NCBI GenBank assembly: GCA_031581405.1
Contig: JAVLBD010000001.1
Span: forward strand, 1 to 35,736
Direction of reading: 5' to 3'
Length of the DNA stretch: 35,736 nt
Source: Dehalococcoidia bacterium
GTDB taxonomy: Bacteria; Chloroflexota; Dehalococcoidia; E44-bin15
Part shown: positions 18,980-25,601 of the stretch, piece by piece
How positions within the stretch are numbered: position 1 is the first letter of the stretch
Layout of the letters: each line of letters begins with the position of its first letter
Position numbers and translations under genes: made by a program
Notes under the pieces: generated by a model
The model's input: only the letters and a program-made list of their open reading frames with translations
Databases searched by the model: none
What the model was told of the DNA's origin: nothing

Positions 18980-21150
<2,171 letters not shown>

Positions 21151-21206
21151 CCAGTTGCCCCGTTCACTCTGCTTTGTCCTCTATTCTTATCCTCTGTGCA
21201 TTCAAA

Positions 21207-21737
21207 TCAAATACCATTTGTTGGAGAGCTGAGCCAATCAAGTACTTGCCTTAGAACCTCACTGTGATTAGCCCTGGTCACTGTGCTGATAACCACATTG
21301 GGGTGCTGCTTAATCTCATCTGCCCATGGGTGGGAGGACCGCATGATAGTACCCAGAATCCTCTTTTCGCCATTTATTGCATCTGAGACCGCCAGTTGAA
21401 AACTGGGGGAAAATAGCTCCATCTTTCCGATCTCATCGATGACGATAAGATCACGCTCCCGAGTCGCTTCTCTGAGTGCCCCAACCCCTACTCTATCCAG
21501 ACCTTCGATATCAACGCCATATTTGCTGATACGATAGGGACTTATAATATCGATGTGAGCTAGAATCGCACTATAACCTTCCAGTGTTACAATCCTGAAG
21601 CCCTGCCTAACCCCACCCTCTCTAATTTCTTCGGTGAAAAATCCCCCAGCAGCTACCTGAGCCTTTTCCAAAGCTCGTTTAATAATAGTGGTTTTACCAA
21701 CTCCGGGACCACCGGTGAGAAGATAGGCCTTCCTCAT
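21207..21737 (-). CDS. THEP1/NTPCR-like nucleoside-triphosphatase (P-loop NTPase_1 family)
   Basis: 176 aa with Walker A GGPGVGKTT and Walker B LIVIDEIGKMEL. Size and layout resemble the Aquifex THEP1 family. Confidence 0.8.
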   Translation of the reverse strand: MRKAYLLTGGPGVGKTTIIKRALEKAQVAAGGFFTEEIREGGVRQGFRIVTLEGYSAILAHIDIISPYRISKYGVDIEGLDRVGVGALREATRERDLIVIDEIGKMELFSPSFQLAVSDAINGEKRILGTIMRSSHPWADEIKQHPNVVISTVTRANHSEVLRQVLDWLSSPTNGI

Positions 21738-21823
21738 GCACTTTTCTCGACCCTCCTCTTCTCCTTCATCTTTTTCATTTTCTTGCGGTGTTTCATCGTT
21801 GCAACTCTTTTAGTCTTATTCAT
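21734..21823 (-). CDS. Untracked 29-codon, extremely basic miniprotein (MNKTKRVATMKHRKKMKKMKEKRRVEKSA); reminiscent of bS22/AURKAIP1-type mini ribosomal proteins
   Basis: Hand translation of the - strand. ATG at 21823 is preceded by AAAGGGGGG. Its TGA (21734-21736) overlaps the NTPase ATG (21735-21737) as ATGA. 15 of the 29 residues are K/R/H. Confidence 0.45.
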   Translation of the reverse strand: MNKTKRVATMKHRKKMKKMKEKRRVEKSA

Positions 21824-21909
21824 ATCCCCCCTTTTGCCCTGAAATCAACATTTTAGCTTCACTATCGGTAACCCTAAATTATCTCTGTCAACAGCATTTG
21901 CTCATATAT

Positions 21910-22131
21910 TCATACCGTTATACTGAAAACCTCCACAAACCGAGCGATGGAGCGGTCGTATGTTTTTTCGACCTCAGGTGGAAAAAGACATCCCGGTAGC
22001 TCACCGAGCCTGTTGTGATATACTATGCAGTCGCAGCATTTCCCCTTTCTCTCACAGGGCTCATATGTGCACGTACATCTGCTCTTATTAGCAGTAACGT
22101 TGCATTCCAATTTATCAGATTTCTTTAACAT
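21910..22131 (-). CDS. Small Cys-rich protein (8 Cys; C-x10-CTCTYEPC-x5-CCDC-x14-C) of unknown function
   Basis: 73-aa ORF whose ATG lies 17 nt inside the 3' end of the MetE-like gene. The CxC..C....CCxC pattern suggests a metal or Fe-S site. I recall similar uncharacterised 'cytosolic Cys-rich' proteins in anaerobes, but this is unverified. Confidence 0.7.
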
Positions 22132-23104
22132 GCCGCTTTCTAAATTCTGTGGAAACCCCGGCCAGGAGCTCCAAAGCCCATTCTGCCGCCTCCTCCGAGA
22201 GCGAATCCAGGCCGCACGATGGGGTAAGCAAACACCGCTCTTTCATAAGGCTGAGACTGACACCTTTTCGATTGAGGGCCCCAAATCCGTCTTCTAGGCG
22301 GTCAAGAAGGCTGTTTACCGTTTCACCCTGCAGGTCTTGTGCATCATGAGCTACAATGCCCCAGGCAATTACGCCACCACGATCAAGGAATGCCTTCACC
22401 TTATCAGGGTAAAGGGCAATAGTGTACCCATAATTATAGGCATCGAAGTTCAGAATGTCGAGGGATGTGGAAAGTAACATCGACCAATCGGTGTTGCCGC
22501 AGCAGTGAACCCCTTTGAGCCCGCTGATACCGGAAAAAACTTCTTCTAAAAGGCTTGTTATCTTATCCGATGAGATAGAGACAAAAGCGGAGCCAATAGA
22601 GGCCATATATGGTTCATCAACGAAGATGATTGTATTAGGGGAAATAGTCTTAATCTCCCGCTCCTGCCAGGCTGCTTTTAAATGAAGGTGTTTGGCCATA
22701 GCATCAGCAAGGGTATCGTTATAGAGGAGTGGGCGACGGTTCTCATCGGTCACTGCTAATCCCCAGGTAACCGGACCTGTAATTTGACCCTTAACGGCAA
22801 AGGGTGAACCGTGCTTCCTTTCGAGAAATGCGTGAAGGCCTGCGGCATGGTCAGAGTTTATCGCATATTTCTCGATCTTATCTTCGAGATAGGAGGAATA
22901 TAGCTTTTCAAGGGGCTTATCCAGATCTTTAGAGCTATCAACATAAATGCGTTCACTTTCTATGACAACGCCAGGGAATCCATCGCTGAACTGGGCGTAC
23001 ATATTCTCCAAAAAAGAGCGCCTAGTAAGTTGTGGCCAGGCGGGGATCTCAGGTAAGAACTTATCTACCAGTGAGCATGCCTCTTTGGGGTCGGTATGAG
23101 GCAT
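22115..23104 (-). CDS. Stand-alone MetE C-terminal-barrel-like protein: candidate folate-independent ('core') methionine synthase
   Basis: 329 aa with IIFVDEPYM (DEP), KGVHCCGN (H-x-C) and LTPSCGL (xCGL). These match the Zn/homocysteine-site motifs of cobalamin-independent methionine synthase. There is no N-terminal folate barrel. The gene is embedded among SAM-cycle genes. Confidence 0.72.
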
Positions 23105-23174
23105 ACTTCCTATTATAGTAGCCAGTCCGCTGAGTTCAAATCGGGGCAGTTCGTCGCACCTCTCTAAGAAGTAA
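23105..23174 (-). promoter_or_regulatory. Candidate cis-regulatory leader RNA upstream of the MetE-like gene (SAM-I-like core fragment; helix sequestering the SD)
   Basis: The - strand reads UACUUCUUAGAGAGGUGCGACGAACUGCCCCGAUUUGAAC...AUAGGAAGUA-UG. UACUUC pairs with GAAGUA, which covers the AGGAAG SD. The AGAGAGGUG..GA..ACUG.CCCGAU..GAA string resembles the SAM-I J1/2-P2 core, but P2b pairing and the GCAACC element are not evident. Confidence 0.25.
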
Positions 23175-23234
23175 CCTTACATAGCTTTGCGGTTTACCTG
23201 GTTAACATTACGGGAGCCATTTGTGGGGTTACTT

Positions 23235-24101
23235 CTATGTTACATACTTTCCAATTAAAAGTTCCAGGTCTTCTTTTATCCGCACAGGGATCTTCTCTGG
23301 AGCTGTGATAATGGCATTCTGAAGCGCTTCAGCACAGCCACATTCCCGCTTCTCCGGTATACGTGCCGCCACAAGCCCAATAATTTTCTTTGCCTTATCG
23401 GCATTGAGCATCAGGTTGGCAAGCGCCATGTTGATGGTTACCGATTCTTCGGTTTCATGCCAGGTATCGTAGTCTGTTATACAGGCAAGCGTAGCATAGC
23501 ATATCTCTGCTTCTCTTGCCAGCTTTGCTTCTGGCAGTGCGGTCATTCCGATAATGCTTGCACCCCAGGAGCGATACAGGTTCGATTCCGCTTTGGTTGA
23601 GAAAAGCGGACCCTCCATCGCGATATATGTCCCTTCCTGGTGAACATTAGCTCCAACATCGAGTGCTGCATGATAAAGTATATCACTGAGTGTCGGGCAG
23701 AATGGCTCGGCGAAACTGACATGGGCAACCAGCCCCCCATCGAAGAAGCTGTTTACACGGCTCTTGGTACGGTCGATGATCTGATCTGGTACAACGAGAT
23801 CAAGAGGGTGGATACCCTCTTTCAGGCTTCCTACTGCACTGACAGAGATTATCCACTCCACGCCAAGCGCCTTTAAAGCATAGATATTGGCCCGTGATGG
23901 AATCTCGGTGGGGCTGATAGTGTGACCCCTGCCATGTCGTGGTAAAAAGGCAATGCTTCTACCATCCAACTCGCCAGTAATAATCGCATCGCTTGGCTCA
24001 CCGAAGGGAGTGTTTGGCCTCACTTCCTCGACATTGGTCATCCCCGCTATCTCGTAGAGGCCGCTTCCCCCAATAACCCCTATTTTTACGGCAGTATTCA
24101 A
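23235..24101 (-). CDS. mtnP: S-methyl-5'-thioadenosine phosphorylase
   Basis: IGVIGGSGLY N-terminus, ...FLPRHGRGH... and ...IGMT..PEA.LAREAE.CYA. are typical of MTAP/PNP family 2. Confidence 0.9.
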   Translation of the reverse strand: MNTAVKIGVIGGSGLYEIAGMTNVEEVRPNTPFGEPSDAIITGELDGRSIAFLPRHGRGHTISPTEIPSRANIYALKALGVEWIISVSAVGSLKEGIHPLDLVVPDQIIDRTKSRVNSFFDGGLVAHVSFAEPFCPTLSDILYHAALDVGANVHQEGTYIAMEGPLFSTKAESNLYRSWGASIIGMTALPEAKLAREAEICYATLACITDYDTWHETEESVTINMALANLMLNADKAKKIIGLVAARIPEKRECGCAEALQNAIITAPEKIPVRIKEDLELLIGKYVT

Positions 24102-24173
24102 GCACTTCCGCCTTTCTCTTCAGTATACTTAGTAAATATGCTGCAACTGTCCAGTGTCTGATAAATATAACTT

Positions 24174-25190
24174 CTATAACCTATCTTTGTAGGGCTCCCT
24201 GATTACGCCTCGCTCAGTAATTATAGCAGATATGTAGCGATGAGGGGTGATATCGAAGGCGGGATTTGCTACATTCACTCCTGCCGGGGCGATAGGAACC
24301 CCCCTTATATGGGTAACCTCTTCTGGACTTCGCTCCTCAATGGGGATCTCATTCCCTGATTCCAGTGAGTAGTCTATAGTACTTATCGGGGCAGCGACAT
24401 AGAAAGGGACGCCATTTTCCATTGCGAGAACTGCCAAATTATAGGTACCAATCTTGTTGGCAACATCGCCATTTGAGGCAATCCGGTCAGCACCTAAGAT
24501 AACGCAATCTATCACTCCTCTAGATAGAAAATGACCCGTCATCGTATCCGTGATTAGAGTAAAGGGGATGTTATATTTCAACAGCTCCCACGCGGTGAGG
24601 CGCGCTCCCTGGAGAAGAGGACGTGTTTCGCTGGGGAATACGTGGATTTTTTTGCCGCTATCCCATGCTGTGCGGATGACTCCCAGCGCGGAGCCGTATC
24701 CTGCTGCCAGTGCCCCGGTGTTACAATGTGTCATTATATTGAAACCATCTTTTATCAACTCTGCACCATAAGAGCTAAGTTTTCGCTCCGCCGCATCGTC
24801 TTCGGCATCCAACTTTTGAGCCTCGGCAAGTAGCGTTGCCTTTATTTCGTCCACGCTCTCGCCAGCTTCGGCTACTTTGTTCATCCTTTCCAGGGCCCAG
24901 AATAGGTTGACTGCGGTCGGTCTTGTAGCAGCCAGCGTCTCGGAAATAGGGCTAAGTTTAGCTAAAAATTCCTTTTTCGAAGTAGCCTCGATCTCCCGAG
25001 CCCCTAATGCCATTCCATATGCAGCAGTGATTCCTATAGCAGGGGCACCTCGAATCCTCATATCCTTAATCGCGGACGCCACCTCGCGATAGTCTGAAAG
25101 TTGTAGATAAACCTCCTCCCATGGAAGCTTGGTCTGATCGATCATCACAACCTTGCCCGCGATCCATTCTATAGCTTTAAATGCACTCAT
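24174..25190 (-). CDS. mtnA: S-methyl-5-thioribose-1-phosphate isomerase (eIF-2B-like family)
   Basis: [21 protein letters not shown]..., GAPAIG and [18 protein letters not shown]. The ATG at 25190, with a GAGAGG SD, is preferred over the upstream in-frame ATG at 25265. Confidence 0.9.
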
Positions 25191-25601
25191 TTTAAACCTC
25201 TCATCTACTCCTCTATTAATTGATTCTCCTTTTTCACCATTGCTGGTGTAGTATATGCCTTCCACATGGAATCTCTCCTGTATCGCGGTCAGGATCTGCT
25301 GGGTCTATTTATCGTCCTCGCAATCGACTGGTTTGATAACTGCTACCAGCCGCAATAACACAGCAGTTGCGGTGATGCTTCTTTTCGGGGAGGCCCATAC
25401 AAGGTCCATTAGGTTCAAAGAAGAAACGTAGGAGTCATTGATCATTACGAAAAGGGGGGCTTAGAAGAGTAACTGCAGCCGCAGGTGCCCTTTACCCCGG
25501 TATCTTCCATGTGTACTCTACAACCTCATACCATAGTCAGCATCTATGTTTCATCTCACTTTAGGAGCTCTAATTGAATGTTAACCAACCCCTTATCCGA
25601 C

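What the first reader, a model, noticed from the sequence alone, without database searches (positions are those of the whole stretch)
21734..21823. Untracked 29-codon hyper-basic ORF coupled by an ATGA overlap to the THEP1-like NTPase
Seen in sequence: on the - strand, the ATG at 21823 is preceded by AAAGGGGGG. It encodes MNKTKRVATMKHRKKMKKMKEKRRVEKSA (15/29 K/R/H, no acidic cluster until the end). Its TGA overlaps the NTPase ATG as ATGA, a classic translational-coupling arrangement. The ORF is below the ORF-track cut-off. Established knowledge: tiny Lys/Arg-rich proteins with a ...K-H-R-K... core include the ~33-aa ribosomal protein bS22 (AURKAIP1/COX24-like) of actinobacteria and Bacteroidetes. 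Inference: this could be a bS22-like ribosome-associated peptide or an RNA-binding cofactor of the NTPase. I know of no described link between THEP1/NTPCR-family NTPases and such a peptide.
Basis: partly seen in the sequence, partly recalled or inferred. Interest (0 to 1): 0.6.

Follow-up and report, generated by a model that had tools for sequence, protein, structure and literature searches.

The report
Conserved tiny basic protein before THEP1
The 29-codon frame is a real gene from a large, unnamed family of tiny, very basic helical proteins found across the phylum Chloroflexota; it resembles ribosomal protein bS22 but is not bS22, and in Dehalococcoidia it is translated together with the THEP1 NTPase, an enzyme of unknown function.

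Summary
A 29-codon ORF lies at 21734-21823 on the minus strand. It has a G-rich ribosome-binding site and an ATGA stop/start overlap with a THEP1/NTPase_1 gene.

It is a real gene. The same frame sits upstream of the NTPase in 21 of 26 related loci. pN/pS is 0.25, against 1.43 and 0.82 in the other frames. The family (MNK[RT]KRVAxxKH[RL]) occurs in 133 of 401 Chloroflexota genomes sampled, nearly always as a single copy. It has no Pfam or NCBIfam model. AlphaFold2 predicts one helix.

It is not canonical bS22. PF08213 does not match it, and 84 of 401 Chloroflexota genomes carry a true bS22. Thirty genomes carry both. One of them, G270, has bS22 between rplW and rplB and the small ORF beside the NTPase.

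All 35 family members tested still align to bS22 in one gapless register, better than shuffled copies do (median z 2.1). A distant paralogue or a convergent RNA-binding helix is therefore plausible.

Adjacency to the NTPase is confined to Dehalococcoidia. In the window's own family the two genes are also lost together.

My best guess is an accessory RNA- or ribosome-binding peptide. Its function has not been tested.

This scan met the same family before on other DNA (e1-1163035, e1-1474413).

The parts
21734..21823 (-). Small ORF of 29 aa plus stop, MNKTKRVATMKHRKKMKKMKEKRRVEKSA. It belongs to the Chloroflexota 'MNK[RT]KRVAxxKH[RL]' family.
   Evidence: The family profile scores it at E 5.8e-14 in the six-frame search. 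pN/pS is 0.25.
21826..21834 (-). Shine-Dalgarno-like AAAGGGGGG, two bases upstream of the ATG.
   Evidence: Read. Purine-rich or GAGG-type sequences sit at the same place in relatives. Its function as a ribosome-binding site is inferred.
21734..21737 (-). ATGA overlap. The NTPase start ATG is at 21737-21735 and the small-ORF stop TGA is at 21736-21734.
   Evidence: The same overlap occurs in 13 of 19 family- and order-level loci that keep the ORF. The other six have an 8-14 nt spacer between the stop and the NTPase start. Translational coupling is inferred, not measured.
21751..21758 (-). GAGGAGGG inside codons 22-25 of the small ORF. It lies 13 nt before the NTPase ATG and could serve as a distant, weak ribosome-binding site for the NTPase.
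   Evidence: Read. The spacing is longer than is usual for a Shine-Dalgarno site, which fits dependence on re-initiation. This is inference.
21207..21737 (-). THEP1-type NTPase of 176 aa. It has a Walker A motif GGPGVGKT and a Walker B-like VIDEIG.
   Evidence: PF03266 at E 1.3e-47 and NF010248 at 168.9 bits, above the cut-off of 156.
21910..22131 (-). Upstream neighbour: a 73-aa Cys-rich DUF6485 protein. It is context only and is separated from the small ORF by an 86-nt spacer.
   Evidence: PF20095 at E 1.1e-7. It is not the upstream neighbour in most relatives.

Best explanation
Shown:
- This is a real protein-coding gene for a 29-residue peptide, more than half of it K/R/H, predicted to form one helix.
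- It belongs to a large, unnamed family restricted, as far as these searches show, to Chloroflexota. The family has a conserved N-terminal core, M-N-K-[RT]-K-R-V-A-x-x-K-H-[RL]-x-K-x-K-K, and a variable tail of 0 to about 130 residues.
- It is distinct from canonical bS22, and it is dispensable in some close relatives.
- In Dehalococcoidia it lies directly upstream of the THEP1 NTPase, usually with an ATGA overlap.

Inferred:
- The peptide is made from its own strong ribosome-binding site. Ribosomes that terminate at TGA re-initiate at the overlapping ATG, so the NTPase is produced in step with it.
- The peptide most likely acts as a polycationic helix that inserts into structured RNA. The likeliest target is the ribosome, either as a distant paralogue of bS22 or as a functional analogue of bS22, eL41 or mS38.
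- The NTPase, which has itself been proposed to act on nucleic acids, may work on the same RNA or RNP.
For: Gene reality:
- The frame is conserved in 21 of 26 NTPase loci.
- Codon-position entropy is 0.68 / 0.71 / 1.38. K11 and H12 are invariant although both codons are in use for each.
- pN/pS is 0.25, against 1.43 and 0.82 in the other frames.

Family size and spread:
- 58 loci were found in Dehalococcoidia, Ktedonobacteria and Chloroflexia genomes.
- 476 clusters at 90% identity match the family profile, with no Pfam domain, and every name given by a source is 'hypothetical protein'.
- 190 representatives at 50% identity match, and in most the motif starts at residue 1.
- 133 of 401 genomes in the phylum sample carry it, one copy each.

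Structure:
- AlphaFold2 predicts one helix over residues 3-31, with pLDDT 95-97 for the first 20 residues.
- Conserved residues lie all round the helix (conservation moment 0.08). That fits a peptide enclosed by RNA better than one docking by a single face.

bS22-like residue order:
- All 35 members align to a bS22 HMM in one gapless register (offset +5). Median z against shuffles is 2.08, and 21 of 35 reach p<0.05. The window peptide scores 19.7 bits, z 2.77, p 0.015.
- In the reverse direction, Dehalococcoidia bS22 against the family HMM gives z 3.3 and 3.0.

Precedent:
- The pocket formed by 16S helices h2, h27, h44 and h45 is filled by unrelated-looking tiny basic helices in different lineages, and these are often unannotated (PMC10618245).

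Link to THEP1:
- The ATGA overlap is present in 13 of 19 loci.
- 35 of the 39 genomes with a strong NTPase match also have the peptide, against 133 of 401 overall.
- In the window's own family, the peptide is present in 16 of 24 genomes, and all 16 also have the NTPase. The 4 genomes without the NTPase also lack the peptide.
Against: - There is no direct evidence of expression, RNA binding or ribosome association.
- The gene never lies beside ribosomal-protein genes in the contexts examined. Canonical bS22 in the same class sits in the S10 operon.
- Four genomes of the same family, 96-97% complete, have no intact copy and no bS22 either. The protein is therefore not essential.
- The similarity to bS22 is weak. 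hhalign gives 18.7% probability, PF08213 does not match, and Msm, Fjo and Bbu bS22 against the family HMM give p = 0.075, 0.55 and 0.31.
- Shuffling is a lenient null model for basic helices, and the 35 tests are not independent because the sequences are related.
- Long forms with K/A/P-rich tails would fit DNA or nucleoid binding equally well.
Confidence: 0.5

Rival explanations
1. The peptide is a dedicated partner of the THEP1 NTPase. It would act as an activator, an adaptor or a substrate-mimicking tail, and it is made in fixed proportion through the ATGA overlap.
For: - Adjacency is seen in about 15 of 19 Dehalococcoidia genomes that have both genes.
- The ATGA overlap is conserved.
- In the window's own family the peptide is never found without the NTPase, and four genomes lack both.
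- 35 of 39 genomes with a strong NTPase match carry the peptide.
Against: - 98 of the 133 peptide-bearing genomes have no strong NTPase match.
- In Ktedonobacteria and other classes both genes can be present but lie on different contigs or more than 100 kb apart.
- Some Dehalococcoidia keep the peptide in the same methionine/SAM cluster, followed by a different gene (L029, L033, L048, L059, L078, L092, L101).
- Four NTPase-bearing relatives have lost the peptide.
- The co-occurrence counts are inflated by shared ancestry.
- Joint loss of two adjacent genes can result from a single deletion.
Confidence: 0.2
2. The peptide is a general nucleic-acid-binding polycation, for example a nucleoid-associated or DNA-compacting protein, and is not ribosomal.
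For: - Long forms of 92-206 aa carry Lys/Ala/Pro-rich, histone-H1-like tails (L024, L025, L037, L039, L055, L092, L101, P0253).
- The gene is dispensable and patchily distributed.
- It has no ribosomal gene context.
Against: - The invariant, position-specific core (N2, K3, V7, A8, K11, H12) is more than a generic polycation would need.
- The residue order resembles bS22 in a fixed register.
Confidence: 0.2
3. It is the genome's orthologous bS22 ribosomal protein (PF08213).
For: - Size, charge and helical prediction fit.
- The gapless alignment KRKRVAxxKHRK / RRKKMAKHKHRK is better than shuffles.
- No PF08213 gene was found in the window's genome or in 24 genomes of its family.
Against: - PF08213 does not match any of 16 members at E<=10, while real bS22 scores 43-46 bits.
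- A profile of the small ORF and 15 relatives (A2) finds no bS22 or mS38 chain in the PDB.
- The wider family profile (A4) finds only its own family among the hits inspected, in a search of 1.8 billion representatives.
- 30 genomes carry both genes, close to the 28 expected if they were independent.
- In G270, bS22 lies between rplW and rplB and the small ORF lies by the NTPase.
Confidence: 0.05
4. It is a leader ORF whose translation matters only for switching on the NTPase, and the peptide itself has no function.
For: - The ATGA overlap is present.
- The NTPase's own Shine-Dalgarno-like site is poorly spaced, 13 nt from its ATG.
Against: - There is strong purifying selection on the amino-acid sequence.
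- The same protein is conserved in at least three other gene contexts and in classes where no NTPase follows it.
Confidence: 0.03

Closest known systems
Ribosomal protein bS22 (Pfam PF08213 COX24_C/DUF1713; M. smegmatis 33 aa; Chloroflexota copies such as MGSVIKKRRKKMAKHKHRKLLKKTRWQRKHG)
   Same: - It is about 30 aa, more than 50% K/R/H, and a single helix.
- It shares the order basic run, [V/M], A, x, x, K, H, R, K, x, x, K, K ... R, R in one gapless register.
- It is often missed or unnamed in annotation.
   Different: - It lacks the N-terminal GSVIKK and the C-terminal RWQRR.
- It is not matched by PF08213.
- It coexists with true bS22 in 30 genomes.
- It is never in the S10 operon.
- Its tail varies from 0 to about 130 residues.
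- A place in the ribosome has not been shown.
bS22 of Bacteroidota and Borrelia (F. johnsoniae MPSGKKRKRHKVATHKRKKRARANRHKKKK; B. burgdorferi bb0822), eL41 and mS38
   Same: - They are tiny basic helices that fill the pocket of 16S h2/h27/h44/h45 in different lineages, with little sequence similarity to one another (PMC10618245).
- The core K-V-A-T-x-K is shared with the window peptide (K-R-V-A-T-M-K).
   Different: The similarity is not significant: z 1.75, p 0.054 for the window peptide. The same test also fails for the accepted pair of M. smegmatis bS22 against Fjo+Bbu bS22 (p 0.39), so it has little power.
The same unnamed Chloroflexota small-protein family, noted earlier in this scan (e1-1163035: 39-aa ORF upstream of THEP1; e1-1474413: 32-codon ORF between acetyl-CoA synthetase subunit genes)
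   Same: Those notes describe a basic micro-protein family restricted to Chloroflexota, often upstream of THEP1, with bS22 as the closest known protein.
   Different: They concern other genomes. I did not compare their sequences directly, because my look-up by sequence returned nothing.
THEP1 / NTPCR (COG1618, PF03266), for the downstream gene
   Same: It is full length, with Walker A and Walker B motifs, and scores above the NCBIfam equivalog cut-off.
   Different: No small basic partner is described for the Aquifex, archaeal or human enzymes. The structure paper notes only a neighbouring tRNA methyltransferase in four archaea.

Membership tests
bS22 (PF08213 / DUF1713 / AURKAIP1-COX24 C-terminal) | Match to the family HMM above its curated cut-off of 23 bits | tested here: not met
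   No match at E<=10 for the window peptide or for 15 relatives. There was none in the six-frame search of the window's own genome. Controls: M. smegmatis bS22 scores 46.2 bits and a Dehalococcoidia bS22 scores 43.4 bits.
bS22 (PF08213 / DUF1713 / AURKAIP1-COX24 C-terminal) | About 30-33 aa, highly basic, helical | tested here: met
   29 aa, with 15 K/R/H. AlphaFold2 predicts a helix over residues 3-31 with pLDDT 95-97.
bS22 (PF08213 / DUF1713 / AURKAIP1-COX24 C-terminal) | Sequence similarity beyond what composition gives | tested here: inconclusive
   hhalign gives 18.7% probability. Shuffle tests give z 2.77 for the window peptide and a median of 2.08 over 35 members, all in one register. 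M. smegmatis, F. johnsoniae and B. burgdorferi bS22 against the family HMM give p 0.075, 0.55 and 0.31. The control shows the test has low power.
bS22 (PF08213 / DUF1713 / AURKAIP1-COX24 C-terminal) | It is the genome's sole occupant of that role, so it should be mutually exclusive with a canonical copy | tested here: not met
   30 of 401 genomes carry both genes, against 28 expected under independence. G270 has bS22 between rplW and rplB and also has the small ORF by the NTPase.
bS22 (PF08213 / DUF1713 / AURKAIP1-COX24 C-terminal) | Physically located in the 30S pocket formed by h2, h27, h44 and h45 | not testable with these tools
   This needs a ribosome structure or ribosome proteomics from a Chloroflexota carrier.
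Unnamed Chloroflexota 'MNK[RT]KRVAxxKH[RL]' small-protein family | The N-terminal core motif starts at residue 1, and the sequence matches the family profile | tested here: met
   MNKTKRVATMKHRK. The profile E-value is 5.8e-14. Family alignments are A2 and A3.
Unnamed Chloroflexota 'MNK[RT]KRVAxxKH[RL]' small-protein family | Single copy per genome and under purifying selection | tested here: met
   There is one match per genome in the 133 positive genomes of the phylum sample. One relative, G038, has two matches. pN/pS is 0.25-0.30.
THEP1 / NTPase_1 (downstream gene) | Full-length match above the curated cut-offs, with P-loop motifs | tested here: met
   PF03266 scores 162.2 bits and NF010248 scores 168.9 bits against a cut-off of 156. 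GGPGVGKT and VIDEIG were read.
Translationally coupled gene pair | Overlapping stop and start on the same strand, conserved among orthologues | tested here: met
   ATGA at 21737-21734. The same overlap is in 13 of 19 related loci, and the rest have a spacer of 8-14 nt.
Translationally coupled gene pair | Downstream translation depends on upstream translation | not testable with these tools
   This needs reporter fusions with a premature stop placed in the small ORF.

The most novel reading that the evidence does not exclude
The peptide anchors in rRNA, in or near the bS22/eL41 pocket, and recruits or regulates the co-translated THEP1 NTPase. That would make THEP1/NTPCR a ribosome- or rRNA-directed NTPase and would give this orphan enzyme, which is conserved up to humans, its first functional context.
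Probability: 0.1. Interest if true: 0.8.

Novelty: new variant of a known kind. Interest (0 to 1): 0.55.

Why it matters
- Tiny basic proteins are routinely missed by annotation. Several turned out to be ribosomal components only when structures were solved, such as bS22 and bL38 in Borrelia.
- This family is present in about a third of the Chloroflexota genomes sampled. It has no name, no model and no known function.
- It coexists with true bS22 while resembling it. That points to a second, lineage-specific RNA-embedded peptide, or to a paralogue that could mark a specialised ribosome.
- Its operon link with THEP1 in Dehalococcoidia is one of the few genomic clues to the role of the THEP1/NTPCR family, whose function is still unknown.
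- A profile model of this family would allow these genes to be annotated in thousands of genomes and MAGs.

Tried and rejected
- Pfam and NCBIfam scans of the peptide and of 16 relatives gave nothing.
- A profile search of PDB sequences gave only a designed repeat protein, by chance.
- I tested whether the distribution complements canonical bS22. It does not: the counts are 30 genomes with both, 103 with the peptide only, 55 with bS22 only and 213 with neither (hand-counted).
- The promoter and terminator scan of 20100-23300 gave no more sites than shuffled sequence, and none was specific to the small ORF.
- The leader-ORF-only reading was rejected on selection and context.
- A paper search for bS22 plus Chloroflexi found nothing relevant.
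I re-ran it with a 43-aa family member placed first.
- My first alignment, A1, was cut one codon off on the plus-strand loci. I replaced it with A2.
I therefore could not look for transcript evidence. I also could not inspect the rplW-rplB spacer of the window's own genome to confirm that bS22 is truly missing there, rather than unassembled.

Full report
**1. Observation**

On the minus strand, ATG at 21823-21821 opens a 29-codon frame, MNKTKRVATMKHRKKMKKMKEKRRVEKSA. It ends with TGA at 21736-21734. The peptide has 10 K, 4 R, 1 H and only 2 E.

AAAGGGGGG lies at 21834-21826, two bases before the ATG. The next gene starts with ATG at 21737-21735, so the two genes share ATGA. That gene (21207-21737) is a full-length THEP1-type NTPase. 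It matches PF03266 at E 1.3e-47 and NCBIfam NF010248 at 168.9 bits, above the cut-off of 156.

**2. It is a real gene**

I found orthologous NTPase genes in 26 of 41 related genomes and read the DNA upstream of each.
- In 21 of 26 loci the same frame is open and encodes MNKRKRVAxLKHRK..KK.KEKRR.
- In 13 loci the ATGA overlap is kept. In six loci the stop lies 8-14 nt before the NTPase start.
- Because this set was found through the NTPase alone, it is not biased toward the peptide. In it, pN/pS is 0.25 in the ORF frame, against 1.43 and 0.82 in the shifted frames.
- Across 72 distinct sequences, third codon positions carry twice the entropy of first and second positions. Invariant residues such as K11 and H12 use both of their codons.
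- Two species of one genus (L009, L012) carry a decayed copy with a shared in-frame TAA. One locus (L010) has no copy at all.

**3. It belongs to a large, unnamed, phylum-wide family**

- A scan with the pattern MNK[RT]KRVA found 58 loci in Dehalococcoidia, Ktedonobacteria (including the cultured Ktedonospora formicarum) and Chloroflexia genomes.
- A profile search of 5.8 billion proteins gave 476 clusters at E<=0.01. None has a Pfam domain, and every name given by a source is 'hypothetical protein'.
- An exhaustive HMMER search of 1.84 billion representatives gave 190 at E<=0.001. In most, the motif starts at residue 1, and all 19 sequences I inspected belong to the family.
- In an even sample of 401 Chloroflexota genomes, 133 carry it (82 of 212 genera), one copy each.
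- The N-terminal ~25 residues are conserved. The tail varies, from nothing to about 130 residues of Lys/Ala/Pro-rich sequence.
- AlphaFold2 predicts a single helix over residues 3-31, with pLDDT 95-97 over the first 20 residues.
- Conserved residues are spread all round that helix.

**4. Relation to bS22**

Formal membership fails.
- PF08213 scores M. smegmatis bS22 at 46 bits. It matches none of 16 family members at E<=10.
- The family profile finds no bS22 or mS38 chain in the PDB.
- PF08213 finds nothing in the window's own genome.

The decisive point is that Chloroflexota do have canonical bS22.
- 84 of 401 genomes have a PF08213 match above the cut-off, at other loci.
- 30 genomes have both genes, close to the 28 expected if the two were independent.
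- In G270, bS22 (MGSVIKKRRKKMAKHKHRKLLKKTRWQRKHG, 43.4 bits) lies between rplW and rplB. In the same genome the small ORF lies beside the NTPase.
- So the small ORF is not the bS22 orthologue.

The resemblance is still more than composition alone.
- Against an HMM built from eight Chloroflexota bS22 sequences plus the M. smegmatis one, all 35 family members align without gaps in the same register. Family residue i pairs with bS22 residue i+5.
- In that register, V7-A8 pairs with M12-A13, K11-H12-R13 with K16-H17-R18, and K17-K18 with K22-K23.
- Median z against composition-preserving shuffles is 2.08, and 21 of 35 reach p<0.05. The window peptide gives z 2.77, p 0.015.
- The reverse test gives z 3.3 and 3.0 for two Dehalococcoidia bS22 sequences.
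- bS22 from M. smegmatis, F. johnsoniae and B. burgdorferi is not significant against the family HMM (p 0.075, 0.55, 0.31).
- The same test also fails for the accepted pair of M. smegmatis bS22 against the Fjo+Bbu HMM (p 0.39). Sequence statistics therefore have little power in this class of protein.
- I read this as a possible distant paralogue, or as convergence on the same kind of RNA-embedded helix. It is not proof of either.
- Sharma et al. 2023 (PMC10618245) show that the pocket of 16S h2/h27/h44/h45 is filled by dissimilar tiny basic helices (bS22, mS38, eL41) in different lineages. They predict that more will be found.

**5. Relation to the NTPase**

- In the phylum sample, 39 genomes have a strong NTPase_1 match (E<1e-35), and 35 of them have the peptide.
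- Adjacency is confined to the window's own class, in about 15 of 19 genomes with both genes.
- In Ktedonobacteria and other classes the two genes lie on different contigs or more than 100 kb apart.
- Some Dehalococcoidia keep the peptide at the same spot of the methionine/SAM-cycle cluster, after the core-MetE-like gene, but it is followed by a different P-loop or kinase gene or by ahcY.
- In Ktedonobacteria the conserved context is a MiaB-like gene, a TPR gene, the peptide and then a gene of about 540 aa. These neighbours were recognised by eye only and were not scanned.
- In the window's own family (24 genomes), the NTPase is present in 20 and the peptide in 16, always beside the NTPase.
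- The four genomes without the NTPase also lack the peptide. Four genomes with the NTPase lack an intact peptide anywhere.
- None of the 24 has canonical bS22.
- So the peptide is dispensable. Within this family it is gained and lost with the NTPase, but at the phylum level it is an independent gene.
- The THEP1 structure paper proposed a DNA/RNA-directed role for that enzyme on electrostatic grounds (PMC1079890). That is compatible with a shared RNA target but does not show one.

**6. Mechanism**

Shown:
- The gene, its family and its predicted helix.
- The overlap with the NTPase start.
- Its distinction from canonical bS22.

Inferred:
- The peptide is translated from its own G-rich ribosome-binding site.
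- Terminating ribosomes re-initiate at the overlapping ATG. The only Shine-Dalgarno-like sequence for the NTPase, GAGGAGGG at 21758-21751, lies 13 nt upstream of its ATG, which is farther than usual.
- The peptide binds structured RNA, most likely in the ribosome, as an accessory component.

I give this reading 0.5. A dedicated NTPase partner gets 0.2, a general nucleic-acid-binding polycation 0.2, true bS22 0.05, and a leader ORF without peptide function 0.03.

**7. Novelty and limits**

- No public model or name covers this family, and my paper searches found no description of it.
- Earlier notes of this scan describe the same family in other genomes (e1-1163035, e1-1474413). Another note describes canonical bS22 in the Dehalococcoidia S10 operon (e1-3522692). 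I confirmed that last point independently on G270.
- The counts of genomes with both genes were read by hand.
- Related genomes are not independent observations.

Noticed in passing
L104 (G270:C7) 1494-1590; also L103-L114: Canonical bS22 genes (PF08213, 28-48 bits) occur in 84 of 401 Chloroflexota genomes sampled. Some appear to start at non-ATG codons. In G270 the gene sits between rplW and rplB in the S10 operon, which is an unusual place for bS22.
   Followed up: partly
L009 and L012 (genus g8), just upstream of the NTPase start: Both species carry a recognisable remnant of the small ORF with a shared in-frame TAA (MIKRRRVAQ*KPREKMKK) and an H-to-P change at the invariant His. No intact copy exists elsewhere in these genomes, which are 96-97% complete. 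This looks like an old pseudogene kept in place.
   Followed up: partly
L024, L025, L037, L039, L040, L055, L065, L092, L101; P0253, P0184: Long forms of the family (92-206 aa) join the conserved N-terminal core to Lys/Ala/Pro/Glu-rich, histone-H1-like tails. In Dehalogenimonas-like genomes only this long form is seen. The two long forms scanned, L024 and L025, have no Pfam match.
   Followed up: partly
window 19000-25300 (minus strand) and L029, L033, L048, L059, L078, L092, L101: In Dehalococcoidia the small ORF keeps a fixed place in a methionine-salvage/SAM-cycle cluster (mtnA, MTA phosphorylase, core-MetE-like gene, small ORF, then a variable P-loop or kinase gene, ahcY, metK). This holds even where the THEP1 gene is absent. 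Earlier scan notes e1-3693829 and e1-3693830 cover the cluster itself.
   Followed up: partly
L042, L043, L045, L064, L084, L089, L096, L100: In Ktedonobacteria the small ORF has a different conserved context: a MiaB-like methylthiotransferase gene, a ~270-aa TPR-like gene, the small ORF, and a ~540-aa gene whose product begins ...SSASVRNILTLL... (possibly a PucR-type regulator). These neighbours were recognised by eye only and were not scanned.
   Followed up: no
window 22115-23104 (minus strand): The 329-aa MetE-like protein has no Pfam match at E<=10 and only a weak NCBIfam methionine-synthase match (38.6 bits against a cut-off of 258).
   Followed up: no
L097, L098, L099: In some members from other classes the motif begins at L or V (LNKRK..., VNKRK...). 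This implies TTG, CTG or GTG start codons, and the longer ATG-started frames listed by ORF callers there are probably wrong.
   Followed up: no
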